Below are positions 384 through 63,459 of a stretch of DNA of 64,000 nucleotides, one piece after another. Every line of letters starts with the position of its first letter. Positions within the stretch are counted from its first letter, which is position 1. The notes below the pieces were generated by a model, which was given only the letters and a program-made list of their open reading frames with translations, was not told where the DNA came from and made no database searches. The DNA lies in contig CM075993.1 of assembly GCA_038087875.1 (NCBI GenBank), positions 11,100,001-11,164,000 on the forward strand, given 5' to 3'. This DNA comes from Malacoraja senta. Taxonomy: Eukaryota. The position numbers and the translations under genes are program-made.

Positions 384-414
384 CTGAAGAAGGGTCTCGA
401 CCCAAAACGTCACC
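384..414 (+). ncRNA. Degenerate minimal hammerhead ribozyme motif in a Penelope-like terminal repeat
   Basis: CTGAAGA-A-GGGTC-TC-GACCC-AAAAC-GTC; G12 is mutated at a CpG. Confidence 0.5.
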
Positions 415-789
415 CATTCCTTCTCTCCAGAGATGCTGCCTATCCCGCAGAGTTACTCCAGCTTTTTAGTGTCTATTGTGTGTTCTACACAAGATTCTCC
501 ATCTGCACCTTCCTTGTATCTCCACATTGAATGCAAAGCCTGGTAGACGGAAGGTGAGGACCAAGGGAACTCTTGTTTCTCTGCGAGTAAAAAAACAACT
601 TATTTTCACTCTCCCAGTTGTGACAAAGGGAATTGGACAAAGCATTGAACTTAGATAGACACAAAAAACTGGAGTACCTCAGCAGGTCAGGCAGCATCTC
701 TGGAGGTGACGTTTCTGGTTGAGACCCTTCTCCAGAGATGCTGTCTGACCCGCTGAGTTACTCCAGCTTTTTGTGTCTATCTTCGGTTC

Positions 790-1390
790 AAACCTTCCTA
801 CGCATATCCTTTGCTCAGTCCGCGTGGACCTACTCGATCTCCCAACTGCCAAACACTTTAACTCCCCCACCCATTCCCGCACTGACCTTTCAGTCCTGGG
901 CCTCCTCCACTGTCAGAGTGAGACCCAATGCAAATTGGTGGAACAGCACCTCATATATGACAAAGGAATATTGTCGTTTTGGGCAGCTTATATCCCAGTT
1001 GTATGAATATTGATTTCTATTAACTTTAAGTAACCCTTGTCTCTCTGTTGCTCCCCCACCCAACTTGTTGTACTATTCAAAGCCATCATGTTGAGTTTCA
1101 TTGTCTATAACTCGTTTTCACCTAGCCCACAGCTAACGATGGCCTGTTTCTGATACGATACGATAGAACATTATTTATCCCAGGAGGGAAATTAATTACC
1201 AAGAGTCATTAAAAACACTTTATCATCGTTACTTTTATGCATATCTTTCATCCATTTGTTCTATATCTCTCCATATCACTGTCTATCTCTCTCGTTCTCT
1301 TCTCCCCTGAGTCTGAAGAAGGGTCTCGACCCGAAACATTAACCTATTCCTTTTCGCCAGAGATGCTGCCTGACCCGCTGAGTTACTCGT
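790..1390 (+). mobile_element. Penelope-like element fragment (GIY-YIG C-terminus plus terminal repeat)
   Basis: ORF 773..1006 reads DLPTAKHFNSPTHSRTDLSVLGLLHCQSETQCKLVEQHLI, typical of a PLE endonuclease end; a hammerhead-like core follows at 1313. Confidence 0.75.
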
Positions 1391-1710
1391 CATAGAGTGA
1401 TACAGCGGGGAAAGGCCCTTCGGCCCAACCTGCCCACACTGGCCAACATGTCCCAGCTACACTCGTCCCACCTGCCCACATTTCGTCCCTATCCCTACAA
1501 ATCTGTCCTATCCATGTACCTGTCAATCTGTTTCTTAAATGTTGGGATAGTCCCAGCCTCAACTACCTCCTCCGGCAGCTCGTTCCATACACCCACCACC
1601 CTTTGTGTGAAAAAGTTGCCCCTCAGAATCCTATTAAATCTTTCCCCCTTCACCGTCAACCTATGTCCTCTGGTCCTTGATTCCCCTACTCTGGGCAAGA
1701 GACTCTGTGC
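1390..1710 (-). mobile_element. CR1/HER1 LINE 3' fragment
   Basis: Minus frame SRTRGH..RGNFFTQRVVGVWNELPEEVVEAGT; tail shared with the SINEs. Confidence 0.85.
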
Positions 1711-1740
1711 ATACATGTCATGAATATCATGTAGATGAGT

Positions 1741-1771
1741 CTGAAGAAGGGTCTCGACCCGAAACATCACC
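1741..1771 (+). ncRNA. Minimal hammerhead ribozyme motif
   Basis: CTGAAGA-A-GGGTC-TC-GACCC-GAAAC-ATC: both conserved core boxes intact, stem III altered at a CpG. Confidence 0.55.
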
Positions 1772-2514
1772 CATTCCTTCTCTCCGGAGATGCTGCCTTG
1801 TCCCACTGAGTTTCTCCAGCACTTTGGGTCTATCTTCGGTATAAACCAGCATCTGCATTTTGTTTTCCTGTCTACATATTGCGCATGTCCTCATGTGAAG
1901 CCCGTCTGACAGCGACGGCCCCTGAGGTACTGGTGCTACGGACAGGCTGAGACGGACCCAGCCCCCCCCCTACACATTCTCAGCTGCGATAGACAGGATC
2001 AACACAAGCTGTACATTTTCACGACCAGATTCTGCTGTCAGTCCTTTCAGATTGATTTCATTATTTTAATGACACTTATTATCAGGATGAATTTGAATCC
2101 CCTGATTTCTGAGCTGTGAAGATAATGTAACAATTTGAAGATTGGACACGATAAAAATCCCCCTCTCTGTGGCAGTTGCTTTATTATGACAATAAAACAT
2201 AGTTGAATGCAGATTCAAAATAAATGGCCTGTGATTCAAAGCCTGGAAGTGATGCAATATGTCACACAAGACATACAGCTATTGTTTTAGCACCCAGAGA
2301 TATTTTATCATCATTTGTCTGCTGGCCACTAACCTTCTACACATCATTGCCTGCTCCTGCTTAGTTAGTTTGTCAAGGTCAGGGTGCTATGGCCGGTTAT
2401 GGATGTTCAACTATTAAGGAACCAACATAGGCCTGGCATAAACGGATTTAAATACTCGTGTCGGATCAGCACAACTTGACTCCAGCAGTCCAGGGATTTC
2501 TCCAGACTGGGGGG

Positions 2515-3790: not shown

Positions 3791-5284
3791 CTGGTCCTAG
3801 GCTCTCCCACCAGTAGAAACATCCTTTCCACATCTACTCTATCTAAGCCTTTCATTATTCTTTATTCAGGCTAGGACTTCAAGTAACTCTTGTTTTCCAT
3901 CTGGCTCAGTCCCTCCCCCACCCTAGTACTCCGACTAGTTTCAATGTCCTTCTGATTAATTTACTGATTGTTTGCCTTCCGCTCAGCAAACAATGAACTA
4001 TTCTGCATTTCCTTATCATCGTCTGCTTTGATCTATTGTTTTCACACCTTACCCTTCTATATCTCTGGACTCCCGCTCGATTCTCAGTCTGAAGAAGTGT
4101 CACCCGTTCCTTCCCTCCAGAGTGGCTGCCTGTCCGCTGAGTTACTCCAGCATTTTGTGTCTACCTTCGGAGTTTATTCCTTGTGGAGCAGGAGGATGAG
4201 GGGGATAAACGCTCGGAGTCTCTTGCCCAGAGTAGGGGAATCGAGAACCAGAGGACATAGGTGAGTGGGGGAACGATTTAATAGGAACCTGAGGGGGAAG
4301 GTTTTTACACAAAGGGTGGTTGGGTGTATGGAACGAGCTGCCAGAGGAGGTAGTTGAGGCAGGGACTATCCCAACATTTAAGAAGCATTTGGACAGGTAC
4401 ACGCACGGTGCATGGATAAGACAGGGATATGCGGCAAACGCAGGCAACACTAGTGTAGATGGGACATGATGGTTGGCATGGGCAAGATGGGCCGAAGGGC
4501 CTGTTTCCGCACTGTATGACTATGACTCTATGAAATCCCACCTCCAGGAACAGCTCCAATTTGTTTCCAGATGGAACTCAATGAAGCATCCGAGCCAAAC
4601 AAGGCAGTGCTCATCCTCACCACCCAGTTGGCATTATGCAGAGCCCCTTTTAAGGGCGGCACAGTGGCACAGTTGGTAGAGCTGCTGCCTCACTGTGCCA
4701 GTCACCCAGCTTCGATTCTGATGTCGGCTGTTGTCTGTGCGGAGTTTGCACGTCCTTCCTGTGACTGCGTGCATTTCCTTCCCCATCCCAATATGTGTGG
4801 GTTTCTCATAAGGTCATAAGGAATAGTAGAATTAGGCCATTTGGCCCATCAAGTCTACTCCGCCATTCAATCATGGCTGATCTATCTCTCCCTCCTAACC
4901 CCATTCTCCTGCCTTCTCCCCATAACCTTTGACACCCGTACTAATCAAGGATCTATCTATCTCTGCCTTAAAACTATCCGTTGACTTGGCCTCTGCAGCC
5001 TTCAGTAGCGAATAATTCCACAGATTCACCACCTTCTGACTATAGAGGTGTAGGTTAATTGGTCCTCTGTAAGTTTCCCCGAATGTGTAGGGAGTGGGTG
5101 TGAAAGTGGGATAAGATAGGACTAGTGTGAATGGGCGATCAATGGTTGGCGTGGACTCAGTGGGTTGAGGGGCCCGTTTCTGTGCTGTATCTTTTAATCA
5201 ATCATTTTCAACCAAATAAATCATTTAGTTGTTAAATCTCCTCTCCCCAACACCGGTTAGATAATGTTGTTTCTGTGAACTTGA

Positions 5285-6145: not shown

Positions 6146-6440
6146 ATTTGAGCACGATATCATCAAAACCTACAGAGCTCCTCCGCCACTACTTTAGACG
6201 AATAAAAATTTCCAAATTTAAAGTCGGCTACAACTCACATAATATCCACTTGGTCTTTGTTGCAGTTTCACCTGATTTGATCTTGGTTTAACACAGGTGG
6301 ATTTGTTTTTCATTATATATTAAGAGAGAAGATTTAGTCCATGGAGACACAAGGAACTGCAGATGCCAGAATCTTGAGCAAAGCACTCTGTGCTGGAGAT
6401 TACTTTTGACTGTATTATTATTATCTATTTATTTGGCCCC

Positions 6441-6780
6441 ATGGCAGAAGCATCCACGTCGCGGGGCTGGATACTGGAAGTATCCTGAGCTACGTTTGCG
6501 ACCACCATCATCTATTGCGACCAGTGATGGCTTCCAACATTGTCGCCGGAAGCTTGCGTCCTTTTCAGGACGGACGATGACAGCGAGGTCAATATTTGTA
6601 ACAAGATGGACTCGAAAAGAAGAAGAAGTTCTATTTATTTATTTTTTAATATATATACTGACGTTTGTTGTTGTTTATTGTGGGTTTTACATGTTTACAT
6701 ATTACGTTGTGCTGCTGCAAGTAAGAGTTTCATTGTTCCGATTTGGGACATAAGACAATAAAACACTCTCGACTCTTCAC
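6441..6780 (+). mobile_element. Non-autonomous retroposon with a Rex1-like 3' tail
   Basis: Tail GTGCTGCTGCAAGTAAGA..GACAATAAAACACTC matches 2800-2880, but the head is unrelated and not recognisably coding. Confidence 0.5.
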
Positions 6781-7155
6781 TCTCCCCACAGACGCTGCCT
6801 GACCAGCTGGGTGTTTTTTGAATGTTTTTCTTTTATCTCAGATTTCCAGCATCTGCGTTTTTTAATACATTTTTGTGTCGCTGATATGTAAAAATGTTTA
6901 AAATTCAGCCAAGAAATTGATTTAAAAATGGGAAAATATATACATGGGAGTAAACTAACGTAAAATATTGAAACTTAGAGACAGAAAAATAGATGCAGGA
7001 TTAGGCCATTCGGCCCTTCCAGCCGGCACCGACATTCAATATGATCATGGCTGATCATCTAAAAATCAGTATCCCGTTCCTGCTTTCTCCCCATACCCCT
7101 TGATTTCTTTAGCCCAAAGAGATAAATCTAACTGCCTCTTGAAACCATCCAGTTG

Positions 7156-20672: not shown

Positions 20673-22190
20673 TAAGGCAGCAACTCTACCGCAGTGCCAC
20701 TGTGCCGCCCCTGATCCATATCCCTCCCATTCCCTGCTCTTCCATATGCCCGTCCAAAAGCTTCAACTACACTATCGTATCTGCCTCCACCACCACCCCT
20801 GGCAGTACGTTCCAGGCCCACGCCACTCTCCGCGTAAAAACTTGCATCTCCGTGAAAGTTTGCCCCTCTCACTTTGAAGCCTTTGCCATTTCCACCCTGG
20901 GAAAAAGAACTGTGTGTCTTTCCTCTCTCTTCCTCTCATAATTTAATATTCTTCCTATCAGGTCTCCCCTCAACCTCCGACGGTCTGGAGAAAACATTCC
21001 AATTTTGTGCTACCTCTCCTTGCAGCTAATGTCCTCTATTCCAGGCAACATTCTGGTATACCCCTTCTGCACCTCTCCATGATGTTAGAAAGCTCGATAA
21101 GATCACCCCTCAGCCTCTTAAGCTTCAACGAAAAATGTCTTAGTTTATCCAGCCTCTCCTTACAACTCAACCCCTTCAGTCATGGTAACATTGCACTAAA
21201 CGCTATCCCCTTATCATGTCACAGAGTCATAGAGTGATACAGTGTGGAAACAGGCCATTCGGCCCAACTTGCCCACACCGGCCAACATGTCCCAGCTACA
21301 CTAGTCCCACCTGCCTACGCTTGGTCCATATCCTCCAAACTTGTCCTATCCATGTACCTGTCTAACTGTTTCTTAACTACCTCAACTACCTCCTCTGGCA
21401 GCTTGTTCCATACACCCACCACACTTTGTGTGAAAAAGCTACCCCTCAGATTCTATTAAATCTTTTCCCCTTCATCTCAAACCTATGTCCTCTGGTGCTC
21501 GATTCCCCTACTCTGGGCAAGAGACTCTGTGCATCTACCCGATCTATTCCTCTCATGATTTTATAAACCTCTATAAGATCTCCCCTGTACACTATAGTGT
21601 ATCTGTACACTATAAGTGGCTCGACTGTAATCATGTATTGTCTTTCCACTGACGTTGGCCCGCAACAGAAGCTTTTCACTTTACATTTGGATCACGTGAG
21701 AAATAAACTAAGCTGTAAATGTAAATGTTGTTTTGTATTCTTTCTTGCTAAATGGCTTCCTTCCTCTAACTGGTGGCTGGATCTATACTCCAAATGTAAC
21801 CTTATCAACATCTTCTACATGCCTTTGCAAGTCAAGTACTCAACACCCACGGCTAATGAAGGTGTCAAACTGCTTCAGCACCAACCTGTCCACCTCAAAT
21901 GTGATAGGAGCAGAATTAGGCCATTCGGCCCATCAAGTCTACTCCACCATTCAATCATGGCTGATCTATCTCTCCCTACTAACCCCAATCTCCTGCCTTC
22001 TCCCCTATCACCCGTACTAATCAAGAATCTATCTATGTGTATGAAAGAACTGCAGATGCTGGTTTAAATCAAAGATCCTGTAGACACAAAATGCTGGAGT
22101 AACAGGTAGCATCTCTGGAGAGAAGGAATCTATCCATCTCTGCCTCCACAGCCTTTTGTGGCAAAGGATTCCACAGATTCACAACCCTCT

Positions 22191-24457: not shown

Positions 24458-25536
24458 CAACCCTCTGATTAATGAAATTCCTCCTCATCCCCTTCCTAAA
24501 AGAACGTCCTTTAATTCTGAGCCTACGATCTCTGGTCCTAGACTCTCCCACTAGTAGAAACATCCTCTCCATATCCACTCTATCTACGCCTTTCATTATT
24601 CTGTAAGTTTCAATGAGGTTCCCCCCTCAACCTTCTAAACCCCAGCGAGTAGAGGCCCAGTGCTGGCAAACGCTCATCATATGCTGACCCACTCATTCCT
24701 GGGATTCCCTCCTGTGGGATGACGGGGACATTGGATCTGGAGCGGCTGCTGCTCGATGCTGTGATGGGCGGTGGGGGGATGGGGAGAGGGGAGTGATGGG
24801 GGGAGGGGGGAAGAGTGTCCGAGAGCGAATCAGGCAAAACTCCCCCAATGGGAGAACAATCTCACCCCCCCCCTCTCTCTCTCACCCCCCTCTCCCTCCC
24901 TCTCCCTCCCTCTCTCTCTCCCTCTCTAGGACTGATAACAGTCGATGTTGGGGCAAGGGGATCTCGACAGGTGGAACACCTCCTTGAGAGACCTTCTCGG
25001 CTGTTTGAACGTGTTGGCGGAGGGGGTTGTTTGACAAACTGCGGTGGAGTTTGGGTGCATTCATTACGAGGCACCAAGAGAATTGGAATAAACTTCACCC
25101 TTCAGTGGATGTGGAGACCACCCTGTTTATAATTGATGTTCGCTGCTCCAATGTGACTAATGAACTCGATTACCAGCCTCCCTGGAGGAGTTCCTTTCAT
25201 GGATTTGGCAGCTGGAAGAGAACATAAGACAATGGGACGAGGGAGTGGAGAAGCAAGTGCAGCCTGGGGCTTCTGCTCCATCAGGGAAGGGACCAAAACT
25301 GTTTATTACAAGGGGCATTGTTGGGGGGTTAGCAGATTAATGGTTGCCACTTATAGCTGGCGACACAACGTGAAGAGACACAGACTGAGACAAGAGGCAT
25401 AAACATCCTCGTCAGCCAATCTGCGAGGCTCGGGCAGAACAAGACACAAGAGAACCCGTTGTTATTGATTCAGGAGGACGGTGTAGGTCATGGAACAACA
25501 ACAGCAGCATTCCAAGACAGTTGGAATACAATGGCA

Positions 25537-25779
25537 GACAAAATTGCTGGAGAAACTCAGCGGGTACGGCAGCCTCTATGGAGCGAAGGAAATAGGCAAC
25601 GTTTCGGGCCGAAACCCTTGTACTGATCATCAGTCTGAAGAAGGGTTTCACATCAGTCTGAAGAAGGGTTTCAGCCTGAAAAGTTGCCTATTTCCTTCGC
25701 TCCATAGATGCTGCCGTACCTGCTGAGTTTCTCCAGCAATTTTGTCTACCTTCGATTTTCCAGCATCTGCAGTTCCTTC
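25537..25779. mobile_element. Penelope-derived inverted-repeat insert with hammerhead-like cores
   Basis: Arms are inverted copies of each other; 15-bp flanking direct repeat TGGAATACAATGGCA at 25522-36/25780-94; CAGTCTGAAGAAGGGTTTC occurs twice. Confidence 0.7.
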
Positions 25780-25949
25780 TGGAATACAATGGCACTTAGT
25801 ATATCCACTGTGTGTATGTGGTGTGTCAGGCTCTGAGCTCAGACAATCTTCCACACAAGACCATAAGATAGGGCAGAGTCCAGGTCCTCGATTCACCTAC
25901 TCTGGGCAATAGATTCCAATTAAATATTTTCCCCTTCACCTTAAACCTA

Positions 25950-26385: not shown

Positions 26386-27684
26386 TTGAATTAGGCCACT
26401 CAGCCCATCGAGTTTACTCCGCCATTCGATCGTGGCTGATCTATCTTTCCCACTCAACCCCATTCTCCTGCCTTCACCCCATAACCTCTGACACCTGTAC
26501 TAATCAAGAAGCTATCAATCTCCTCTCTAAGAATACCCAATGTCTTTGTCTCCATCACCGTCTGTGGCAATGAATTCCACACATTCACCACCCTCTGGCT
26601 AAAGAAGTTCCTCCTCATCTCTTCATCTCCATTCTAAAGGAACGTCCTTTTATTCTGACGCTATGACCTCTGGTCCTAGACTCTCCCACTAGTTGAAAGA
26701 TCCTCTCCACGTCCAGGCTTTTCACTATTCGGTAAGTTTCAATAAGGTCCCCACCCCTCATTCTTCGAATCTCTAACGAGTTAGAGACAGGCCCAGAGAC
26801 ATCAAATGTTCGTCATAGATTAACACAAACATCCCCAAGATCATTCTCGATCATTATCATCCTTCTTCAATCTCTGGGCCCAAAAGCGCTCACTATTCCA
26901 AACATGGCCTTGACCAGCATCTTACAAAGCCTCAGTGGGATGCAACTGTTGAGGCACGAATGGTTTTGGGGAGGGTGTGTGTGTGTGGGGGGGGGGGGGG
27001 GGGGGGGGGGGGGTAGGCTAAGCCATCCCTCCTCCATGGACACTTTAGGTATATCAAGGCAAATCTATGTAAGACTCACCTGCCTGTGTTTGGCCCATAT
27101 CCTGTCAAACCTTTCCTATCCATGTGCCTGTCTAAATATATTTTAAATGTTGCTGTACTGCATGCCTCAACTACCTTCTCTGGCAGCTCGTTCCTTGTTC
27201 CCCCAACAGCCTCTGTGTGAAAAAGTTGCCCCTCAGGTTCCTATTATATCTTTCCCCTCTCACCTTAAACCTATATCCTTTGGCTCTTGAATCCTCTACT
27301 CTGGTTAAAGACTACCCAATGTATCCCACTCATGATTTTATACACCTCTATAAGATCACCCACATCCTTCTGCAATCCAAGGAATATAGTCCTAGCCTAC
27401 CCAACCTCTCCCTATAGCTCAGGCACCTCCAGTCCTGGCAACAGACATCTTCCCTACACTCTTTGCAGATTAACAATATCTTTCTCATAGCAGGGTGACA
27501 AAAAACTAAACACAATACTCCAAATATGGCCTCATCAAAGTCTTGTACAACTAAAACATTACATCCCAACCATGTGTAGGAAGGAACTGCAGATGCTGGT
27601 TTAAACCAAGGATAGACACAAAAAGATGGATTAACTCAGCGGGACAGGCAGCATCTCTGGAGAAAAGGAATAGGTGACGTTTCA

Positions 27685-28130: not shown

Positions 28131-28544
28131 TTCAGTTCTTCTGAAAGTCTCGACCCGAAATGTCATCTATTCCTTCTCTCCAGAGATGCTGCCTGACCCA
28201 CTGAGTTACTCCAGCTTTTTGTGTCTATCCCAACCTTTTTACTTAGTACCCTATTTGATGAAAGCCACTGTGCTGAAATCCGCCTTGGCCACCCTTTCTA
28301 CCTCTGATGCCACTTTCAAGGAACTATTTAATTGCACTCCTGGATCATTCTGCTCTACAACATTCCCCAGAACACTGCCATTCACTATGGACATTCTGAC
28401 CTGCTTTGCCTTTCCAAAATGCAACACCTTGCACTTATCTGCATTAAACTCCATCAACCATTCTTCAGCCCACTTGCCCAACTGATCAAGATCCTGCTAT
28501 ACTTTTTGCTTATCCTGATGCACTAGCTACAATACCATCTACAA

Positions 28545-37262: not shown

Positions 37263-37632
37263 GCCCCCACTCAATGGTACTTTATTTCTCACATGTACCG
37301 AGGTACAGTGAAATTCATTTCTGTATACTGTTCAATCTTTTATAAGCATCTCAGATACAGTTCAAGTGTATAGCAGTAATACACTGCGACAGTATACAGA
37401 GTCCAAGATAGACAGGGAATGCTGGAGTAACACAATGGGTCAGACAGCATCTATGAAAAAGGAACAGGTGATGTCTCGGGTCGAGACCCTGCTTCTTTAG
37501 AAGGGGGTCAACCCAAAATGTCACCTATTCCTTCTCTCAGAGATGCTGCCTGTCCCACAGAGTTACTCTTGCATTCTGTGTCTATGTTCCATCTAAACCA
37601 GCATCTACAGTTCCTTCCTACTCAGTATACAG

Positions 37633-40775: not shown

Positions 40776-42096
40776 ATCTTATGAATTCTCATGACATCAT
40801 CTATTCTTGATCACCACTCTCTGCCGTCATCTCACCTGATGCATCATTTCTCTTCCGAGCCGAACAACACTTGGAAGAAGTACTGAGGGACGCACCGATT
40901 ACCCTGTGGGTGGGGAGCTCAATGTCCGACACCATCAGTAGCTTGATGGTACCATCATTCACCAGACTAGCCGAGTCCTGGTGATGTGTCTCCCTGTAGA
41001 TTCTATGCCACACAAGAGACAAGTATTTGACTTCACTCTCACTAAATATAGATGTAGATGTAGGTACTTCGACAAACACCCCTTCCTCTCCCCTTGCTCT
41101 TCCATCTCCCCCATCCCCCTCACTCCCTTCCTCCATTAATGGCCGGTTAACAAGTTCCCCAGTTCCCAATCATGTATCCATCTTGGAATCACACCATCCC
41201 TCGCCAACAATCAGCCCATCAGGGAACCTCCCTGATTCAGGTCATCGGTTGCCGCGCCTCATTTGTCCTGGTCTTTTCTTGCTTCCAGTCCCACCCTCCG
41301 CTCGCCTTTAGTCAGTCCGAAGAAGGGCCCCGACCCGAAACATCACCTATCCGTGTTCTCCAGAGATGCTGCCTGGCCCACTGAGTTACTCCAACATTTT
41401 GTGCCTGTCTTTAAATGCCCATGGTTGCTTTTGTCGAAATGGCCATCGCACGTGTGTGGAGGCAGTCTCTCTTCAGGAAATCTCATGAGAGTGGGACAAC
41501 CACTGTGCTAAGTATCGTTCAGGTCCATGTAGTCTGGGCTGTCACCACCAGTGGCATTATAACCCATCGTAATCTATAACCGCAAGGCCAATCATGTCCC
41601 TCCCTCTCTATCATGAAGCTTGGGAGAGATGGGAGCTCAGGGAGATGAACAAAAATGGAGTGTCCACCAGATAAAGACACAAAAGTTGGGGGCGTACAGT
41701 AGCGCAGCGTTAGAGTAGCTGCCATACAGCGCCAGAGACCCAGGTTCAATCCTGACTATGAGTGCTTTCTGTATAGAGTTTGTACGTTCTCCCCATGACC
41801 TGAGTGGGTTTCCTCCAGGAGCTCTGGTTTCTCCCCACATTCCAAGACGTACGTACAGGTTTGCAGGTTGGTAGACACTAAATGCTGGAGTAATGCAGCG
41901 GGTCAGGCAGCATCTCTGGAGAACAGGAATAGGTGACATTTCGGGTTGAGACCCTTCTTAATTGGTTTTGGTAAAAGTGTAAATTGTCCCGCGAGTATAA
42001 AAAAGTGCAAGTGTGAGGGCTGATCGGTGGTCGGGTGGACTCGGTGGACCAAAGGGCCTGTTTCCACGCTGTATCTCTAAACTGAACTCAATAAAC

Positions 42097-42125
42097 CTGA
42101 AGAAGGGTCTCGACCCGAAATGTCG
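42097..42125 (+). ncRNA. Minimal hammerhead ribozyme motif
   Basis: CTGAAGA-A-GGGTC-TC-GACCC-GAAAT-GTC. Confidence 0.55.
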
Positions 42126-42404
42126 CCCCCCTTTCCTCCAGAGATGCTGCCTGTCCTGCTGAATGACTCCAGCATTTGTGTCTATCTTCTACAAAATCCA
42201 ACTGGTAAGTGACCACCCAATCGGTCTACTCTCAATCACTAGTGACGTGATGGAAGCCACCAGCTGGCACTACCCACCAGCCACCCATCGCCAATGACCA
42301 GTGTTGGTTTTGCCCGGCTCGCTCCACTCTGCCCTCTTCACCCTTAGTCCAAACATGGGTTAACGGGCTGAATGACAGAGACAGGGTGAGAAGTCCCCTC
42401 GGAC

Positions 42405-43212
42405 TCAATCAATCAAAATGATAGCAGGCAGCCTTGGAAGCCTTACCCCACTACTCAAACCTCATGTCAAAAACATTGGCGTGATATTTGACTCAGCACT
42501 GAAATTTGACAAACAAGTCAACACCGTGGTAAAAGCTAGCTTCTTTCAGCTTCGGACGATAGCTAAAATAAAACAATTCCTCCACTTTGATGACCTCGAA
42601 AAGATCATCCACACATTCATCTCCTCCCGCCTAGATTACTGCAACTCCCTTTACACTGGCATCAGCCAATCTTCCCTGTCCCGCCTGCAACTGGTCCAAA
42701 ACGCCGCAGCGAGACTCCAGACGGGCACCCGAAAAAGGGACCACATCACCCGATCCTGGTCTCTCGCCACTGGCTCCCTGTGCGGTTCCGTATACATTTC
42801 AAGATCCTCCTCTCTGTCTACAAAGCCCTCAATGGGCTTGCCCCCACCTACATTAAAAGTCTTCTCACCCACCACTCCACCTCCAGGTCCCTCAGATCGG
42901 CCGACTTGGGGTTGCTGAATATCCCACGGTCTAGGCATAAGCTCAGGGGCGACCGCGCCTTTGCGGTTGCAGCTCCTAGACTGTGGAACAGCATCCCCTT
43001 CCCATCAGAACCGCCCCCTCCATCGACTCCTTTAAGTCAAGACTAAAACCTTATCTATACTCCCAAGCCTTTCTTGACATCCTCTGAGCGAGGGCTATAT
43101 GTATATATGTATGTAGTTTGTTTGTTTATATTATTCTTATAACAAATGTAAAGCACTTTGGCCAACGAGAGTTGTTTTTTAAATGTGCTATATAAATAAA
43201 TGTGACTTGACT
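42405..43212 (+). mobile_element. L2-clade LINE 3' fragment
   Basis: VKNIGVIFDSAL..SRLDYCNSLY..LQLVQNAAAR..GDRAFAVAAPRLWN across frameshifts; tail AAAGCACTTTG..ATAAATAAA(TGACT)n. Confidence 0.9.
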
Positions 43213-44766
43213 CTCAGCCTTAAGAAGGGTCTTGGCCCAAAACGCCGTCCATTCCTTCTCTCCAGAGATGCTGCCTGACCCGCTGGGTTACTCCAGCATT
43301 TGGTGTCTAATTCCAACATTAATTGGGTGTTGCTTGTTCAGAGTTTTGAGATATAGCATGGAAAGAGGGCCATTCAGCCCACTGTCCACACCAACCATCG
43401 ATCACCCATTCATACTAGCTCAACATTATCCCCATTTTGCTACCACTCCCTACACACTAGGGACAATTTACAGAGGCCAATTAACCTACAAACACGCACG
43501 CCTCTGGGATAGGTCTTATTCATTAGTGATAGGAGCAGAATTAGGCCATTCGGCCCATCGTGTTTACTCCGCCATTCAACCATGGCTGATCTAAATCTCT
43601 CTCCTAACCCCATTCTCCTGCCTTTCTCCCCATAACCCCTGACACTCCTACTAATCAAGAATCTATCTATCTCTGCCTTAAATATATCTACTGACTTTGC
43701 CTTCACAGCCGTCCGTGGCAATGGATTCCACAGATTCACCACCCTCTGACTAAAGAAATGTCTCCTCAACTACTTCCTAAAGGAATGTCCTTTTATTCTG
43801 CGGCTATGACCTCTGGTCCTAGACTGGATTGGGATGTGGGAGGAAACCCGGAGGAAACCCAGGCGGACATGGCGAGAACGTGCAAACTCCACACAGACAG
43901 CACTGGAGGTCAGGATCGAACCTGGGTCTCTGGCGCTTTGAGGCAGATGCTCTACCCGCTGCGCCACCGGGCTCTCCTTGGCAATTAAATGTATAGGTAA
44001 CCCTTTACCTCTGGGTCTTTCAATCTGTATACGATGACATGAAAGGAAAATGTTGCACTTTTTACCCAGTTACTAATCCTGCCGTGTTGTGTGGAAGCAG
44101 TCAGCTCGTTTTTTCTGCACCAAAATTCATACAATTTCTCCAATGTTAAATTGAGTAATTATATCCAGGAATGGTTACACATCTCATTAAGTTGCCGAGG
44201 TTAATATGCTGAAACTTGGAATTTTTAAAATTAATTTCTGTCCGTGTGATATTCATTAGATGCAGGAAATAGACGAGGCTTTTAAAAGCAAAACATCAGC
44301 AAAGATTATAAAAGATATTTGGAATAAATATCAGGGTGCAGTTCTGCTGAGAGATGGCCATGGTGCTTAGGACTGTACTGTGCGATCTCTCTTGTAGTTA
44401 AATGCTCAGTTAAAGTGGAACTGATGTGGTGATAAAGCACCTAACTAGCCCCTATTAACCGCTCCTGATCCAAACCCAATCGATTGATTGATATTTTATT
44501 ATCCCATGGGACATGTCTCAGTGAAATTCTTTGATACACAAGGTATGCAAAGAGTCGCCACGTATAGGGCGGCGACAATGTTACAAATGGGCGGCACGGT
44601 GTCACTGCGGTAGAGTTGCTGTCTTACAGCGCCAGAGACCGGGTTCCATCCTGACTACGGGTGCTGTCTGTACGGAGTTTGTACCTTCACCCTGTGACCA
44701 CGTGGGTTTTCTCTGGGTGCTCCGGTTTCCTCCCACACTCCAAAGACATAAGCATTTGTAGGTTAA

Positions 44767-45296: not shown

Positions 45297-45436
45297 TTAC
45301 AGGGATCGCTGTTCGGTGCGGACTCGGTGGCCTGGAGGGGCCTGTTTCTGCGCTGCATCGTTAAAGTTTGTCTAAAGAGCATCACGTACAGGATATCACA
45401 GGGAAGGAGACTGGGCATTCGGCCCACTTGCCCAGT

Positions 45437-45467
45437 CTGAAGAAGGGTCTCGACCTGAAACGTCACC
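45437..45467 (+). ncRNA. Minimal hammerhead ribozyme motif
   Basis: CTGAAGA-A-GGGTC-TC-GACCT-GAAAC-GTC with palindromic ACGT stem III and a GUC cleavage triplet. Confidence 0.6.
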
Positions 45468-46291
45468 CATTCCTTCTCACCAGAGATGCTGCCTGTCCCG
45501 CTGAGTTACTCCAGCATTTTGTGTCTATCTTCAGTTTTAACCAGTATCTGCGGTTCCTTCCTACACATGATTTATTGATAATACTTTCTCTGCTTCAGTT
45601 ATAGTAAGGTAAGTCAGGTCATATCGCACAAGAATGCTGAGGTACGATGAAATATGTTGCAGGTAGCAGCATCAGACAAGAAAGACCGCTGTGCAAAAAA
45701 CAAGACATTAGTGCAAAAATCTATATTAGGAAATATTAAACAAGTCCATGGTGGAATCTGCAACAGACATTTTTTGCATCACCATATTTATTTTCGGATT
45801 TCAAGTTAATAAGTTAATCAGAATGTCCCCAGAATTGGATAAAGGAACAAAAGTTGTAAAACCAAGTCAGTAGATAAGGGTTGACACAAAAAGCTGGAGT
45901 AACTCAGTGGGACAGGCAGCATCTCTGGAGAGAAGGAATGGGTGACGTTTCGGTTCTTCAGATAGATAGGGACGACTGGAAAAGGAAGACAAAAAGGGTG
46001 TCAGACAAGGAGAGAAGGGGAGGAGTGGGGAATGCATAACTAGAATGAGGCATATGGGTGCAAGGGGGACAGGGGAGAGGGTAAAGAGAAGAGATGAAAG
46101 GCAATTGTGGTACTTGAGGATAGGAGATGGGTAACACAGTCACGTGGTTTTCTCCGGGAGCTCCGGTTTCCTCCCACACTCCAAAGACGTACAGGCCTGT
46201 AGGTTAATTGGATTCTGTAAAATTGTAAATTGCCCCTAGTGTGTCGAATAGTGCTAGTGTACGGGGTGATCGCAGGTCGCCGCTGACTCGG

Positions 46292-47692: not shown

Positions 47693-48439
47693 AGAACGTA
47701 CAAACTCCATACAGACAGCACCCGAGGTCAGGATCGAACCCGGGTCTCGGGCACTGCGAGTATAAAGCAATTTTATTGGGTAAAAGCAGCAAAACAATTT
47801 CAATGGAGACAAAAGAAACTGCAGACGTTGGCAGCTTGGCTAAAACACAAAGTGCTGGAGGAACTCAGTGGGTCAAGCAGCATCTGTGGAGGGAATGGAC
47901 AGGAAATGTTTCAGGCTGGGACCCTTCTTCATTCTGATAGGAGTAGGAGGGAGAAAACTCTTTCACTGGTGAGGAATCCTACACGAGAGAATAAAATCTC
48001 AAGTTTAATGTCGTTCAGAGATACAACAGGGAAACAGGCCCTTCGGCCCACCGAGTCTGCACCGACCAGCAGTCCCTGCACCGGCACTATCAGACATGCA
48101 CCAGGGACAATTACATTTTTTTTTACCAAAGTCAATTAACCCACAAACCTGTACGTCTTTGGAGTGTGAGAGGAAACCAGAGCACCCAGAGAAAACCCAC
48201 ACGGTCACGGGGAGAACGTACAAACTCTGTACAGACAGCGTCCATAGTCAGGATCGAACCCGGGTCTCCGGTGCTGCAAGGCAGCAACTCTCATTAGGAA
48301 CAGCCTCAAAATTAAAAACAAGCTGAGTTTTTCCCCAAAGGCAGGGGGTGGAATGGCAAGGAAAGACCAGAGCTTCTGGAGTCAGGTTAGCTTGTCCAAG
48401 TTTTGTACCTGGATCAGACGGTAAATAGAGAGGGAGTTG

Positions 48440-48730: not shown

Positions 48731-48867
48731 CAACAGCTATCAACAGCATGTTAGAACTGGACAGACGCAAAGTGCTGGAGTAACTCAGCCGGTCAGGCAG
48801 AGTCTCTGGAGATAAAGGTATAGGTGGTGCTTCAGTTCGGGACCTTCGAACGAGGAAAGATTAAAAA

Positions 48868-49970: not shown

Positions 49971-50301
49971 GATAAGGACAGAAGAGGAGAAGTGAAATGT
50001 AAAGCCAGGAGGCACATGGACAACAGTGAATCATCCCGTGTGGAGGTGGTGAGGCTCGCAGTGGGCATTGGCACAGAGAGCCATGGAAGCATCCCTCACG
50101 AGATAATGTGAAGGCTCAGATAGGCACAAAAAGCTGGAGTAACTCAGCGGGACAGGCAGCATCTCTGGAGAGAAGGAACGGGTGACATTTTGGGTCGAGG
50201 CCCTTTTTCAGACTGTGAAGGCTTCCCGTCCTGCATTCAATGTAAATCACAGCATGTGTGCTGTCAGTGAGTGGCTCTACCAGTGTGTGTGTGTGTGCGT
50301 G

Positions 50302-51324: not shown

Positions 51325-51376
<52 letters not shown>

Positions 51377-51490: not shown

Positions 51491-51534
<44 letters not shown>

Positions 51535-51578
51535 GCGTGTGCGGTGTGTGTGTGTGCGTGCGCGGTTGTGTGTGTGTG

Positions 51579-51610
<32 letters not shown>

Positions 51611-56700: not shown

Positions 56701-56709
56701 TAAACCTTG

Positions 56710-57659: not shown

Positions 57660-58915
57660 CCTCTTCTCCACTCTCCATTCAGGCAAGAGGTACAAAAGTG
57701 TGAAAACGCACACCTCCAGATTATGGCATAGTTTCTTCCCAGCTGTTATCAGGCAACTGAACCATCCTATCACCAACTAGAGGGCGATCCTGAGCTACTT
57801 TCTATCTCATTGAAGACCCATGGACTATCTTTAATCGGACTTTATCTTGCACTAAACATTATTCCCTTTATCATGTATCTGTACACTGTGGATGGCTAGA
57901 TTGTAATCATGTATTGTCTTTCCGCTGACTGGAGAGCACGCAACAAAAGCTTTTCACTGTACCTCGGTACATGTGACAATAAACTCAACTAAACCCAAGT
58001 AAAGAGATGTGAATGAAGGCTCTGAGTTCCCGATGAGGTAAGTGTAGATAGTCGTTCAGGACTGCTCTCTGGTTGTGATAGAATGGTTCAGTTGCCTGAT
58101 AACTGCTGAGAAGAAACTGTCCCTGAATCTGGAGAGAAGGGATATAAACATCCCGGAACTGTGGGATGTACAAGACTGGGAATATGGTGCTGGGAATGTG
58201 AAGGAAAGAAGAGATTTGGGAATACTCAGTGGGACGGTCGGCATCTGTGGAGGGAGAATATTTGTAGTCAATGTTACAGATTCATGACCCTCATCAAAGC
58301 TGGCCATTTGTGACACAAACAGCAATGCTGGCTATCTGAAACCTGTTGCAATCAATGCCATGGCCAGAGGGCTGAGACTCATCTACCTACAGAGGCCCAC
58401 AGATGGCTGTGGAGGCCAAGTCAGTGAATATTTTTATGACAGAGATAGATAGATTCTTTATTAGTATGGGTGTCAGGGGTTATGGGGAGAAGGCAGGAGA
58501 ATGGGGTTAGGAGGGAAAGATAGATCAGCCATGATTGAATGGCAGAGTAGACGTGATGGGCCGAATGGCCTAATGCCCTCTTCTTCCTGTCTCCCATCAG
58601 GCAAAAGGTACAGAAGCGTGAAAACGCACACCTCCAGATTCAGAGACAGTTTCTTCCCAGCTGTTATCAGGCAACTGAACCATCCTACCACAACCAAAGA
58701 GCAGCCCTGAGCTACTATCTACTGTACTCATCGGGGACCTCGGACTATCCTTGATCGGACTTTGCTGGCTTTACCTTGCACTAAACGTTATTCCCTTATC
58801 AAGTAACTATACACTGTAAATGGATCGATAATAATCATGTATTGTCTTTCTGCTGACTGGTTAGCACGCAACAAAAGCTTCTCACTGTACAATGGTACAT
58901 TAAACTGAAACTGAA
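57660..58915 (+). mobile_element. Cluster of Rex1/Babar-like 3' fragments (with a CR1 tail at ~58400-58575)
   Basis: LPSGKRYRSVKTHTSRFRDSFFPAVIRQLN; the same family occurs at 12950-13240, 61110-61585 and 63093-63350. Confidence 0.7.
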
Positions 58916-59994: not shown

Positions 59995-60625
59995 TTTAGA
60001 GGTACAGTGTGGAAATAGAGCCTTTGGCCCACTGAGTCCGCGCCGACCAGCGATCACCCCGTACACTAACACTATTCGACACGAAGGACAATTAATCAAA
60101 ACCAGTTAACCTACAACCTGCACGTCTTTGGAATGTGGGAGTAACTCCGAGCACCCGGAGAAAACCCACGCAGGTCACGGGGAGAACATACAAACTCCGT
60201 ACAGACAGCATCCGCAGTCAGGATCGAACCCACGTCTCTGGCGCTGTGAGGCAGCAGCTCTACCGCTGCGCCACCGTGCCTACCTAAAAGCCTCTAAATT
60301 CCACTATTTTTAGTTGAGTTTGGCATGGGAAACAGAGCGGAAACAGGCCATTCGGCCCACCGAGTCCGCACCGACCAGCGATCCCCGCACATTAACACCA
60401 ACCTACCAACACTAGGGACAGTTTTACATTTAGACACTTATAGCAAGCCAGTTAACCTGCAAACCTGTACATCATTGGAATGTGGGAGGAAACCGAAGAT
60501 CTCGGAGAAAGATCACGCAGGTCACAGGGAGAATGTACAAACTCCGTACAGACAGCACTTGTAGTCGGTATCGAACCCGGGTCTCTGGCGCTGTAAGGCA
60601 GCAACTCTACCCCTGTGCCACTGTG
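59995..60625 (-). mobile_element. Two tandem HE1-type SINEs within a CR1 tail
   Basis: Two reverse-complement SINE copies at ~59995-60280 and ~60310-60625. Confidence 0.8.
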
Positions 60626-62509
60626 CCTATCTAAAAGACTCAAATGCCACTATCAGATCTGTCTCCACCACCACCCCTGGTAATGTGTTCCAGGCCCCAC
60701 CAATCTCTGTGCTAAAAACTCACGTCTCCATATATCTTCCCCCCTCTCGCCTTACAGCTATGCCCTCTAGTGCTGGGCGTTTCCACCCTGGGAAAAAGGT
60801 TCTGACTGTCTACCCTGTCTATGCCTCTCCTAATTTTATATACTTGTATCGTGTCCCCTCCACCTCCGCTGCTCCAGAGTAACATGGTTGGTGAGGATGG
60901 TCCTGGAGAATTAGCACTGAGGCAGGGTTGAGGGGTCCGAGGCCCCGAGCTCCCACTCCCTACCGCACACTCCGTGACACCTGCCCCCTCTCACACCAGC
61001 TACAGTCACACCCAGAGAAAGACACAAGATGCTGGAGTAACTCAGCGGGACAGGCAGCATCTCTGGAGACCAGGGACTTGCTTCACGTCGCACCCCGGCC
61101 ACTACCTCTTCCCCCCTCTCCCATCAGGCAATAGGTACAGAAGTGTGAAAACACACACCTCCAGATTCAGCGACAATTCCATCCCCGCAGTTATCGGGCA
61201 ACTGAACCATCCTATCACAACCAGAAAGCAATGCTGAACTACTATCTACCTCATTGGTGACCCTCAGACTATCCTTGATCGGTCTGAAGAAGGGCCTCCA
61301 ACTGAAACATCACCCATCCCTTCTCTCCAGAGATGCTGCCTGTCCTGCTGAGTTACTCCCAGCATTTTGTGTCTATCATCGGTTTAAACCAGCATCTGCA
61401 GTTCCTTCCTACACACTTGATCAGACTTTGCTGGCTTTACCTTGCACTAAACGTTATTCCCTTATCATGTATTTACACACTGTGAATGTCTTGATTGTAG
61501 TCACGTATTGTCTTTCTGCTGACTGGTTAGCACCCAGCAATAGCTGTTCACTGTACCTCGGTACATGTGACAGTAAACTAAACTGCACTGACTTTCTCTT
61601 GTACTTGTCTCAGTTATCTAGGGAGGTTTGGTCGGGTTGCATCCCCCAGAGGCTGGCTGCTGAACTCCAGTATCTGATTTCATCGTCCCAACGCTTCTCG
61701 CTACCAACGTTCTTGCACGTTGGAAACAGGGAGAGGGGTGAAATGGAGCAAATCAGACAGCCAGCTCAGCAGCTGCCCCATGTCACCATCTGCTAAGCTA
61801 ATGCAGTGCCCTCCTGGAGTGTCGACAGCCTGAGGGGCAAGACTCATCCCTCGCGTTGAAAGCCCCTGACTCTGGAAATCCCAGAGCTCACCTCTGGGCT
61901 CGGCAAGGTACTGCCTCGCTGCGAGGAGCGACACTGCCTCAGCAGATGCCGCTGAGATAATATTTAGCAATGGGCGCGGAAGTTCGACCAAACTTAGCAA
62001 GAGTAATCTTTGCAGAACACCATTAATCATAATTAAGGCAGGTGAGACAGGCTCTTCAGTGACATCGCCTACAGACATTGGCTTCCTTGAAACGAACCCC
62101 CCAGGAGGGATTCTTCCTCACGGTCCATGGGCTCGCTGTGGAGCAGTTAAAATGGCAATACTCTCGGTCTGGGATCTGGCATTATTCAACAGGTGACAGA
62201 GGACTGGCCAGTTTCATCCCCAGCTGTTATTAGGCAACTGAACCATCCTGGAGATAGTGGAGGAAGGAACTGCAGATACTGGTTTGTAGATAATAGGTGC
62301 AGGAGTAGGCCATTCGGCCCTTCGAGCCAGCACCGCCATTCAATGTGATCATGGCTGATCATCCACAATCAGTACCCCGTTCCTGCCTTCTCCCCATATT
62401 CTCCGCTATTTTTAAGAGCCCTATCTAGCTCTCTCTTGAAAGCGTCCAGAGAACCTGCCTCCACCGTCCTCTGAGGCAGAGATTTCCACAGACTCACCAC
62501 TCTCTGTGT

Positions 62510-63092
62510 TTTAAACCGAAGGTAGACACAAAACACTGGAGTAACTTAGCGGGACAGGCAGCATCTCTGGAGAGAAGGGATGGGTGATGTTTCGGGTCGA
62601 GACCCTTCTCCAGACTGGTTATGGATAAGTGAAACCAGAGATATAGACGGCGATGTGGAGAGATAAAGAACAATGAATGAAAGATATGCAAAAAAGTAAT
62701 GATGATAAAGGAAACAGGCCATTGTAAGCTGTTTGTTGGGTGAAAACGAGAAGCTGGTGTGACTTGGGTGGGGGAGGGATAGAGAGAGAGGGAATGCCGG
62801 GGCTACCTGAAGTGAGAGAAATCAATATTCATACCACTGGGCTGTAAGCTGCCCAAACAAAATATGACATGCTGTTCCTCCAATGTGCGTTTAGCCTCAC
62901 TCTGACAATGGAGGAGACCGAGGACAGAAAGGTCTGTGTGGGAATGGGAAGAATTAAAGTGTCCAGCAACCGGGAGATCAGGTACTGTAGGTTCTCAAGA
63001 AAGGCACAAAAAGCTGGAGTAACTCAGCGGGACAGGCAGCATCTCTGGAGAGGAGGAATGGGTGATGTTTCGGGTCGAGACCCTTCTTCAGA
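62510..63092 (-). mobile_element. Penelope-like fragments with terminal repeats and hammerhead-like cores
   Basis: Reverse complement of the GIY-YIG C-terminus; CAGTCTGAAGAAGGGTCTCGACCCGAAACATC on the minus strand at ~63064-63095. Confidence 0.7.
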
Positions 63093-63459
63093 CTGAACCA
63101 TCCCTGCAAAGAACCAGAGAGCAGCCCTGAGGTACTGTCCACCTCATTGGAGACCCTCGGACCAACTTCAATCGGACTTCACTGGACTTTATCTTGCACT
63201 AACCGTTATTCATGTTATTCCCTTCATCGTGTATCTGTACACCGTGGACGGCTCGATTATAATCATGTATTGTCTTTCCCCTGGCTGGTGAGCACGCAAC
63301 AAAAACGTTTTTCACTGCACTTGTCATAGGTGATAATAAACTAAACCGAACCAAAGTAAAGAGATGTGAAAGAAGGCGGAGGAGAGAAGGGATATAAACA
63401 TCCCGGAACTGAAGGTGTTGGGAATGTGAAGGACAGAAGACCATTGGGAATACTCAGTA

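What the first reader, a model, noticed from the sequence alone, without database searches (positions are those of the whole stretch)
384..63095. Dispersed family of minimal hammerhead ribozyme motifs carried by Penelope-derived repeats
Seen: consensus CAGT-CTGAAGA-A-GGGTC-TC-GACCC-GAAAC-GTC-ACC recurs on the plus strand (384, 1313, 1741, ~41317, 42097, 45437, ~61284) and the minus strand (~29105-29135, ~50180-50212, ~62585-62615, ~63064-63095). A second variant, CTGAAGAAGGGTTTCGGCCCGAAACGTT, can be pieced together from the arms near 25600-25690. Both fit CUGANGA / stem II / GAAA / stem III / NUH with an extra A after A9 and a loopless palindromic ACGU stem III. The variant keeps stem II through G-U pairs, and most damage in individual copies is at CpG sites. 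Established: Penelope-like elements carry minimal type I hammerheads proposed to cleave as dimers. Inference: this is a high-copy non-autonomous ribozyme-bearing family, present here about once per 5-6 kb, which could cut host transcripts. Caveats: stem I is only about 2 bp in the consensus and no copy here is perfect.
Basis: partly seen in the sequence, partly recalled or inferred. Interest (0 to 1): 0.72.

Follow-up and report, generated by a model that had tools for sequence, protein, structure and literature searches.

The report
Penelope retroelement ends carrying minimal hammerheads
The repeated motif is the decayed end of a known kind of jumping gene (a Penelope-like element) in a skate- or ray-like fish, carrying a known minimal self-cutting RNA motif; the one unusual trait is that many copies begin right at the front edge of that motif instead of at its cut site.

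Summary
The motif is real at all quoted coordinates and is the 5' part of a ~100-135-nt repeat with 37 hits in the window. It is the pseudo-LTR of a GIY-YIG Penelope-like element (PLE): two copies follow the endonuclease C-terminus and 3' UTR, five pairs are head-to-head inverted, 3' ends fall into two groups about 35 nt apart (the PLE 'tail'), and 5 of 12 solo copies show 6-10-bp duplications. The motif matches the published minimal type I hammerhead (PMC4209133); no cartilaginous fish is in that paper's table. Copies decay neutrally: core non-CpG 9/143 versus downstream 77/1064; 27 of 44 substitutions hit CpG. Only copy 45437 fits a strict descriptor, stem I is 2 bp, and the active dimer is predicted 18-22 kcal/mol above competing folds, so cutting of host transcripts is unlikely. 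A separate non-autonomous family is not needed. Of interest: 17 of 35 copies start within -11..+9 of the core (about 9-fold hotspot), none piles at the cleavage site; this fits run-off cDNA from an uncleaved RNA whose 5' end lies there. New member of a known kind.

The parts
45433..45569 (+). Most intact pseudo-LTR copy: min-HHR 45437-45464 (predicted cut after 45464), downstream hairpin region, full tail
   Evidence: only strict-descriptor hit
62513..62617 (-). 3' pseudo-LTR of a 5'-truncated PLE (HHR 62613-62586; A6>G, G16.2>A), partial tail
62618..62808 (-). PLE 3' UTR joining the endonuclease end to the HHR
   Evidence: 85% identical over 89 nt to the UTR upstream of copy 1313
62809..62994 (-). 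GIY-YIG endonuclease C-terminal remnant
   Evidence: 70% over 63 aa to P0002, E 3e-24; one search hits to RT+GIY-YIG proteins
62995..63095 (-). Upstream pseudo-LTR of the partial tandem (HHR 63091-63064; G16.2>A), short 3' class
63454..63860 (+). Second endonuclease remnant (63454-63648) plus 3' UTR, no HHR behind it
651..735 (-). Inverted pseudo-LTR arm at the 5' end of composite unit 651-1388
729..806 (+). Direct pseudo-LTR fragment starting at +36, joined to the inverted arm by a short shared stretch
809..1030 (+). GIY-YIG endonuclease C-terminal remnant (frameshifted by a 17-nt insertion)
1031..1309 (+). PLE 3' UTR with a ~67-nt insertion
1310..1388 (+). 3' pseudo-LTR (HHR 1313; G16.2>A), cut short by another repeat
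380..476 (+). Solo copy (G12>A), short 3' class
1738..1868 (+). Solo copy with tail (G16.2>A), starts at -3 behind a G
3874..4171 (+). 3' UTR remnant plus pseudo-LTR whose stem II is deleted
25519..25786 (.). Head-to-head inverted pair of variant B (25519-25623 -, 25654-25786 +) with short duplications at the junction
29037..29252 (.). Head-to-head inverted pair (29037-29136 -, 29148-29252 +)
34812..34947 (.). Head-to-head inverted pair of variant B lacking the HHR (34812-34891 -, 34892-34947 +)
37400..37623 (.). Head-to-head inverted pair joined inside the core (37400-37496 -, 37499-37623 +)
41313..41410 (+). Copy of a further subfamily (U4>C, G16.2>A), probably with its own UTR upstream
41870..41959 (-). 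Solo copy starting at +4
42097..42192 (+). Solo copy starting at +1 (core intact, C15.2>U, 5' strand of stem I missing)
43205..43310 (+). Solo copy starting near -11, three core lesions
45875..45961 (-). Solo copy with stem II deleted
47808..47936 (-). Copy of a further subfamily (C3>A)
50118..50215 (-). Solo copy, short 3' class, 10-bp target-site duplication (G8>A, G12>A)
61282..61414 (+). Solo copy with full tail and a 7-bp duplication, inserted in another repeat
116..229 (-). Variant B solo copy starting in loop II, with tail
22037..22129 (-). Solo copy without HHR, with tail and 8-bp duplication
27572..27684 (-). Solo copy starting at +20, with tail
28146..28233 (+). Solo copy, damaged 5' part
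35337..35433 (-). Solo copy starting at +6, 7-bp duplication
48759..48845 (-). Diverged copy starting near +10
61011..61087 (-). Copy without HHR
58188..58296 (-). Old, diverged relative
   Evidence: E 3e-6
6346..6862 (.). Two diverged fragments in head-to-head orientation (6346-6399 -, 6770-6862 +) with other sequence between

Best explanation
The repeat is the pseudo-LTR end of endonuclease-bearing Penelope-like retroelements (probably Neptune or Nematis type) of a cartilaginous fish, present as several subfamilies of dead, 5'-truncated insertions. Shown: linkage to the GIY-YIG C-terminus, inverted pairs, two 3'-end classes, short duplications, neutral CpG-driven decay. Established from papers: PLE pseudo-LTRs carry this minimal hammerhead; in the anole element reverse transcription starts inside the RNA at two sites ~110 nt behind the hammerhead, uses uncleaved RNA, and the ribozyme cuts only when the element's protein is present. 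Inferred: the PLE protein nicks AT-rich DNA and starts at about +95 or +130, each 16-25 nt behind a repeated CCAGCA motif; the cDNA runs through the uncut hammerhead and most often ends at its 5' edge, most likely because the RNA template begins there (about 0.4), giving ~100-135-nt solo copies; some cDNA ends fold back and give head-to-head pairs. In the active ancestor the hammerhead was probably a weak, protein-assisted dimer ribozyme held off by a competing hairpin; in today's copies it is a passenger that methylation destroys.
For: Window peptide P0001 is 70-75% identical to skate-annotated P0002/P0003, whose upstream parts give GIY-YIG matches (below Pfam cut-off); three window remnants match the last 50-70 residues of 813-927-aa RT + GIY-YIG proteins. 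UTR links for copies 1313, 62613 and 4089. Five head-to-head pairs among 37 hits; opposite-strand joints also in public contigs. 3' ends: 13 of 37 at +90..99, 9 of 37 at +120..134; published tail is 30-40 bp (10.1101/2021.04.23.441226; PMC11167929). Duplications of 6-10 bp flush with the ends in 5 of 12 solo copies. Same core follows a PLE endonuclease end by 67-165 nt in 26 of 32 metagenome loci with a PLE hit. Motif fits the published consensus (PMC4209133 supplement). Core decays like downstream sequence, 9/143 vs 77/1064, p=0.86. 5' ends: 17 of 35 in -11..+9, hazard ratio ~9. In runs X19 and X20 the best-supported upstream loose ends lie at 62609, 62616, 62617, the motif's 5' edge.
Against: No RT fragment of the element lies in the window (15 long proteins searched), so the full-length parent was not seen and its clade rests on homologues. 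No covariation above shuffles in 17 window copies. The sharp 5' edge is equally what a short master copy would give. Several copies carry 1-2 or more bases upstream of the putative start, and the extra-G signal is only the first consensus letter of one loose-end row in two runs plus 2-3 window copies. The 5' boundaries were partly set by eye, the window was chosen after seeing the data, and UTRs of subfamilies B-D are not available, so some 'stops' may be unrecognised UTRs. The loose-end rows at 62609 and 62617 are partly caused by lesions and the UTR variant of the reference copy, and only 24 of 2,276 rows were shown. No chance control was run for the duplications.
Confidence: 0.85

Rival explanations
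1. A dedicated non-autonomous, SINE-like family: short master copies (~135 nt, starting at the hammerhead's 5' edge) are transcribed on their own and mobilised in trans by the PLE protein.
For: Sharp 5' edge; pseudo-LTR hits outnumber endonuclease remnants about 37 to 3-5 in the window; summed contig depth in X19 is 46 M over the pseudo-LTR body, 12 M over the core, ~3 M over the UTR, up to 5 M over the ORF end (not a copy number); pseudo-LTRs suffice in cis for mobilisation (PMC3846280).
Against: ORF-linked copies 1313 and 62613 align within the same type-A group as the solo copies; both 3' classes and inversions occur as in ordinary PLEs; 13 of 35 copies start further downstream and 5 run on upstream, so the 5' end is a hotspot, not a fixed end; no promoter for a short master was tested.
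Confidence: 0.12
2. The dispersed copies act as ribozymes on host transcripts, pairing up as dimers within one pre-mRNA or in trans.
For: Density of ~1 core per 4.6 kb; copy 45437 fits the motif and could take copy 42097 (same strand, 3.3 kb upstream) as substrate with a full stem III and 2-bp stem I; dimeric min-HHRs show low but real cleavage in vitro (PMC4209133).
Against: 1 of 17 anchored copies fits; no excess core conservation; active dimer 18-22 kcal/mol above competing folds, versus a median of 9.5 for 81 other PLE-type contexts; the anole PLE hammerhead is silent without its protein and no RNA ends were found at its site (PMC11167929); 8 of 9 Xenopus retrozyme dimers tested did not cleave (10.64898/2026.07.22.740005); no host exon identified.
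Confidence: 0.05
3. The 5' hotspot is not a transcript start but a structural stop: after copying the folded hammerhead region the cDNA end is released and folds back or anneals to the target by microhomology.
For: The core pairs with the +29..+40 pyrimidine tract in the predicted fold; junction 735/729 and several opposite-strand joints in public contigs join -4..+6 to +36..+41; duplications at 50211 and 61284 overlap the element's first 2-3 bases; two copies lack exactly stem II.
Against: A hairpin would be expected to stop the enzyme at its 3' side, not after it is copied (inference); in one unrelated 14-copy family only 3 of 14 copies end within 10 nt of the core, though other families there show more clustering.
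Confidence: 0.35
4. The motif only resembles a hammerhead; it is a protein-binding stem-loop never selected for cleavage in this lineage.
For: No Rfam hammerhead hit; no covariation; 2-bp stem I with an A-U or G-U pair.
Against: All core bases, the extra A, G10.1-C11.1 and the palindromic stem III are present in variants A and B; same core with covarying stem I (mean 3.0 vs 1.27 bp, 0 of 2000 shuffles) in unrelated PLE families; 2-bp helix I occurs in published cases.
Confidence: 0.15

Closest known systems
Minimal type I hammerheads in PLE pseudo-LTRs (Cervera and de la Pena 2014, PMC4209133)
   Same: Core with extra base after A9, G10.1-C11.1, loopless palindromic 15.2-16.2, position behind the GIY-YIG end, mostly single dispersed motifs, nearby opposite-strand pairs.
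   Different: No cartilaginous fish among the 56 motifs of its Fig. S3; stem I here is 2 bp (published mostly 3-5, some 2); local density far above the 4,000 and 9,000 descriptor hits per genome it gives for coelacanth and Xenopus, though those count intact motifs only.
Poseidon of Anolis carolinensis, PAc (Frangieh et al. 2024, PMC11167929)
   Same: Two internal reverse-transcription starts ~110 nt behind the hammerhead that define an optional tail; uncleaved template; AT-rich targets.
   Different: Different clade (the homologues here have a cysteine linker); no ORF start inside the hammerhead was found here; no 5' hotspot described in the passages read.
Neptune/Nematis clade EN+ PLEs (Craig et al. 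2021, 10.1101/2021.04.23.441226)
   Same: C-terminal GIY-YIG, cysteine linker in the closest homologues (P0003, P0007), partial tandems, inverted 5' copy, 30-40-bp tail.
   Different: RT and linker are not present in the window apart from a non-significant 10-residue hit; clade not tested by phylogeny.
Non-LTR retrozymes of animals (Li, Clavereau and Pollet 2026, 10.64898/2026.07.22.740005)
   Same: Non-coding, type I hammerhead, derived from PLE pseudo-LTRs, dispersed monomers exist; one chondrichthyan was surveyed.
   Different: Defined by head-to-tail arrays with intact motifs; none is present here.

Membership tests
EN+ Penelope-like element | C-terminal GIY-YIG endonuclease upstream of the pseudo-LTR on the same strand | tested here: met
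   three remnants, two joined to the motif through the UTR
EN+ Penelope-like element | Telomerase-like RT in the same ORF | tested here: inconclusive
   No RT hit in the window; homologues that match the remnants carry RT; no genome held
EN+ Penelope-like element | Partial tandem forming pseudo-LTRs | tested here: met
   63095-62513(-) and 729-1388(+)
EN+ Penelope-like element | Inverted 5'-truncated copy at the 5' end | tested here: met
   5 head-to-head pairs in 37 hits; opposite-strand joints
EN+ Penelope-like element | Optional 30-40-bp tail | tested here: met
   13 of 37 ends at +90..99, 9 at +120..134, 7 at +100..109
EN+ Penelope-like element | Short target-site duplications | tested here: inconclusive
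   6-10 bp in 5 of 12 solo copies, no chance control
Neptune/Nematis clade | Cysteine Zn-finger linker between RT and EN | tested here: inconclusive
   Seen in homologues P0003, P0007; not in the window
Minimal type I hammerhead of PLEs | Core CUGANGA, extra base, GAAA, NUH | tested here: met
Minimal type I hammerhead of PLEs | G10.1-C11.1 closing a stem II | tested here: met
   4-bp stem, 89.7% of cells paired
Minimal type I hammerhead of PLEs | Palindromic 15.2-16.2 for dimer formation | tested here: met
   CG in the ancestral state; decayed in 13 of 36 cells
Minimal type I hammerhead of PLEs | Helix I | tested here: met
   2 bp only, the lower end of the published range
Minimal type I hammerhead of PLEs | Covariation across families | tested here: inconclusive
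   Not above shuffles in 17 window copies (189/500 for the score); too few subfamilies
Minimal type I hammerhead of PLEs | Self-cleavage as a dimer | not testable with these tools
   Only folding energies
Rfam hammerhead families | Match to a covariance model | tested here: not met
   No hit at E<=1 in the window or E<=10 around copy 45437
Non-LTR retrozyme | Head-to-tail array with at least two consecutive intact motifs | tested here: not met
   No such array among the 37 hits; one intact motif
Non-LTR retrozyme | Circular RNA | not testable with these tools
   Only contigs were offered
SINE-like non-autonomous family | Own lineage with fixed ends and own promoter | tested here: inconclusive
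   5' hotspot but not fixed; 3' ends variable; promoter not tested

The most novel reading that the evidence does not exclude
The solo copies are run-off cDNAs: the PLE protein starts reverse transcription inside the 5' pseudo-LTR of its own capped mRNA and reaches the RNA's 5' end after 100-135 nt. The genome would then hold a fossil map of the element's transcription start and of both initiation sites in a very large number of copies, show in vivo that the hammerhead is uncut during integration, and reveal a route by which an autonomous PLE mass-produces SINE-sized hammerhead repeats with no non-autonomous master. A conserved competing hairpin would be the off switch of a protein-assisted ribozyme.
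Probability: 0.35. Interest if true: 0.55.

Novelty: new member of a known kind. Interest (0 to 1): 0.3.

Why it matters
As it stands it extends a described PLE hammerhead to cartilaginous fish, where it is very abundant (140,115 of 27.2 million contigs of one run fit a 511-base stretch at 80% or more). The role of PLE hammerheads is an open question in the papers read. The pile-up of 5' ends in front of the core and not at the cut site is genomic evidence that agrees with the in vitro finding that uncleaved RNA is the template, and it makes the run-off model testable with existing skate genomes and cap data. It gives little reason to expect effects on host transcripts.

Tried and rejected
Whole genome: none held. 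Rfam: no hammerhead family matched. Pfam on the 64-aa remnant: nothing, it lies behind the modelled half of the domain. RT of the element: none in the window; the RT fragments present match Pfam RVT_1 and look like other LINEs (family names recalled). Host gene: 129 of 134 frames from mostly unique DNA and 5 gave only RT hits and one sub-threshold plant-domain hit; short exons would be missed, so intronic position is neither shown nor excluded. Expression: no RNA holder listed; runs X1 and X6 are guessed RNA and are contigs, which cannot show ends, strand or level. Viral contigs: 0 matches. Metagenome loci: 122 stretches, none similar to the downstream 100 nt of this repeat, so they are other families and serve only as comparison. 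Covariation within the window: not above shuffles. Single-strand folding of copy 45437 is no more stable than shuffles (z 0.05 and -0.31). Shared 440 nt upstream of copies 27684 and 48845: read as independent insertion into an abundant LINE, not as element sequence. Earlier scan notes: none for this sequence; the 8 listed concern other genomes and were not used. A type II or III topology placing a cut just upstream of the core was considered by eye and found no pairing. Literature searches for a report of this family in sharks or skates and of a PLE 5' hotspot or cap-derived G listed none, from titles and abstract starts; Repbase and Dfam were not searchable, and the family may well be catalogued there.


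Full report
Observation. Positions below count from C3 of the core (+1); C17 is +28. An ungapped scan gave 18 matches against 0.12 in shuffles, and the exact pattern 6 against 1.0. The motif is the front of a longer repeat: a profile from 6 window copies found 37 hits, 18 on + and 19 on -, none in the reversed window. Two hits are weak (25-27 nt). About 14 copies keep a full-length core. About 65% of the window (41,761 bases) is repeated within itself.

What it is. The frame 63454-63645 is 70-75% identical to two proteins annotated from the little skate, whose upstream residues give GIY-YIG matches below the Pfam cut-off. A search with one of them returned 750-930-aa proteins; six of these were scanned, five gave an RT match and all six a GIY-YIG match, partly below cut-off. 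Three window stretches match the last 50-70 residues of such proteins: 809-994(+), 62994-62809(-), 63454-63648(+). In two of them a homologous 3' UTR leads straight to the hammerhead (copies 1313 and 62613), and a third UTR remnant leads to copy 4089. No RT part was found. The host is thus most likely a skate or ray; this rests on the nearest named proteins only.

PLE hallmarks. The passages read in Craig et al. (10.1101/2021.04.23.441226) list 5' truncation, partial tandems, an inverted copy at the 5' end and a 30-40-bp tail. All appear. 63095-62513(-) is pseudo-LTR, endonuclease end, UTR, pseudo-LTR; 651-1388 adds an inverted arm. Five head-to-head pairs occur. 3' ends: 4 of 37 below +85, 2 at +85..89, 13 at +90..99, 7 at +100..109, 2 at +115..119, 9 at +120..134. 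Each main class lies 16-25 nt behind one of two CCAGCA-like motifs at about +76 and +105, both complementary to a stretch at +49. Duplications of 6-10 bp abut 5 of 12 solo copies (no chance control). For comparison, the same core pattern was found in 122 metagenome stretches: 32 of 122 have a PLE protein hit within the short flanks, and in 26 of 32 the motif follows the endonuclease end by 67-165 nt on the same strand.

The ribozyme motif. It fits the consensus in the supplement of PMC4209133 (main text parts 1-2 of 4 and supplement parts 1-2 of 3 read). That list of 56 motifs has no cartilaginous fish and includes cases with a 2-bp helix I. Rfam has no matching model. Of 17 copies anchored at C3, one (45437) keeps core, stem II, stem III and a 2-bp stem I; it is the only strict-descriptor hit in the window. 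In 18 type-A copies 27 of 44 substitutions in +1..+28 fall on three CpGs, two of which include G12 and stem III. Non-CpG core positions vary at 9/143 against 77/1064 downstream (p=0.86; 54/996, p=0.69, without 5 subfamily-diagnostic columns): no sign of selection on inserted copies, at low power. Pair counts on 17 copies do not exceed shuffles. The predicted monomer fold pairs the core with the pyrimidine tract at +29..+40. The active dimer lies 22.1 (copy 45437), 18.1 (majority sequence) and 18.9 kcal/mol (pair 42097 + 45437) above two folded monomers, against a median of 9.5 and a 90th percentile of 18.5 for 81 metagenome contexts; these energies ignore tertiary contacts and protein.

The 5' edge. 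Of 35 copies, 13 start at +10 or later, 17 between -11 and +9, and 5 run on upstream; the stop rate per base is about 9 times higher in the 20-base zone (zone chosen after inspection, six boundaries set by eye or from UTR matches). No pile-up is seen at +29. Contigs of four public runs were laid on 62490-63000: 140,115 of 27.2 million records in X19 and 163,510 of 27.7 million in X20 fit. The best-supported upstream loose ends are at 62609, 62616 and 62617, the 5' edge of the motif; the cut site (62586/62585) is not among the 24 of 2,276 rows shown. At 62616 (base -3) the next consensus letter is G on the element's strand in both X19 and X20, followed by AT-rich sequence, and copies 1741 and 29133 show the same G. 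An extra G marks cap copying in full-length L1 insertions (PMC11702581, one passage). Against this: rows 62609 and 62617 are partly produced by the reference's own lesion and UTR variant, several copies include bases -4 and -5, and in one unrelated 14-copy family only 3 copies stop near the core.

Mechanism. Frangieh et al. (PMC11167929, parts 1-2 of 4) showed for the anole element that reverse transcription starts inside the RNA at two sites that define the tail, that hammerhead mutants insert normally, that the ribozyme cuts only with protein, and that no RNA reads end at its site. The pseudo-LTR holds the transcription start in Penelope (PMC8557442, passages), and an initiator-like motif was noted in a rotifer pseudo-LTR, along with solo pseudo-LTRs and palindromic inverted junctions (PMC3846280, passages). 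I infer that the protein starts at +95 or +130, copies through the uncut hammerhead and usually ends at its 5' edge, either because the RNA starts there (about 0.4), or through a structural stop with fold-back or microhomology (about 0.35), or because a short master exists (about 0.12). Two copies lack exactly stem II, as if the enzyme skipped a folded hairpin. The steps shown are anatomy and decay; initiation, run-off and any cleavage are inferred.

A separate non-autonomous family is not required and retrozyme arrays, as defined in the 2026 preprint (parts 1-3 of 5), are absent. Cutting of host transcripts is unlikely: one fitting copy, one formally possible partner 3.3 kb away, neutral decay, a competing fold, and no host exon identified.

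Verdict. A real, very abundant member of a described class: PLE pseudo-LTR remnants with the minimal hammerhead, in a lineage not listed in the paper that defined the motif. Searches for a report on sharks or skates listed none, but repeat databases were not searchable. Interest 0.3; the run-off reading (probability 0.35) would deserve 0.55.

Noticed in passing
window 6435-6497 (+): HDV-like ribozyme candidate: Rfam CPEB3 model 27.3 bits (gathering 35), E 0.0045 in the whole window and 2e-5 locally, with P1 and P4 kept by changed pairs. Single copy in the window; about 200 bases downstream lies an 80-nt repeat found three more times, possibly a LINE 3' end, so it may be the 5' ribozyme of an internally deleted LINE. 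It sits between two inverted pseudo-LTR fragments.
   Followed up: partly
window 1313, 1741, 41317, 61284, 62613, 63091 versus 42097, 50211: CpG decay turns the palindromic stem III into two complementary alleles, so a mixed pair of decayed copies could restore Watson-Crick pairing there; no such same-strand pair in the window also keeps core and stem I.
   Followed up: partly
window 4089 (+) and 45961 (-): Two copies have deletions that remove stem II, suggesting template skipping over a folded hairpin.
   Followed up: partly
window 729-735 and joints 62573/62578 to 62608-62617: A recurrent inverted junction joins the core edge to +36..+41, the two arms of the predicted competing hairpin.
   Followed up: partly
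window 8509-9525 (-), 22421-23690 (-), 50415-50960 (-), 56610-57350 (+), 42376-43046 (+): Fragments of other LINE-type reverse transcriptases; two scored above the Pfam RVT_1 cut-off.
   Followed up: partly
window 36310-37370 and 51280-51920: Long CA-rich microsatellite arrays; four N gaps total 400 bases in the window.
   Followed up: no
window 13230-13950 and 17280-17810: Two copies of a GC-rich repeat with long open frames on both strands, inside a densely repeated block 10962-18280.
   Followed up: no
P0005 (skate myocardin isoform), residues ~790-825: An annotated host protein contains a stretch 63% identical to the PLE endonuclease end, perhaps an exonised fragment or an annotation artefact.
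   Followed up: no
L001-L122: Unrelated PLE families in metagenome contigs share the core with 3-6-bp stem I; one 14-copy family shows the same two 3'-end classes about 45 nt apart.
   Followed up: partly
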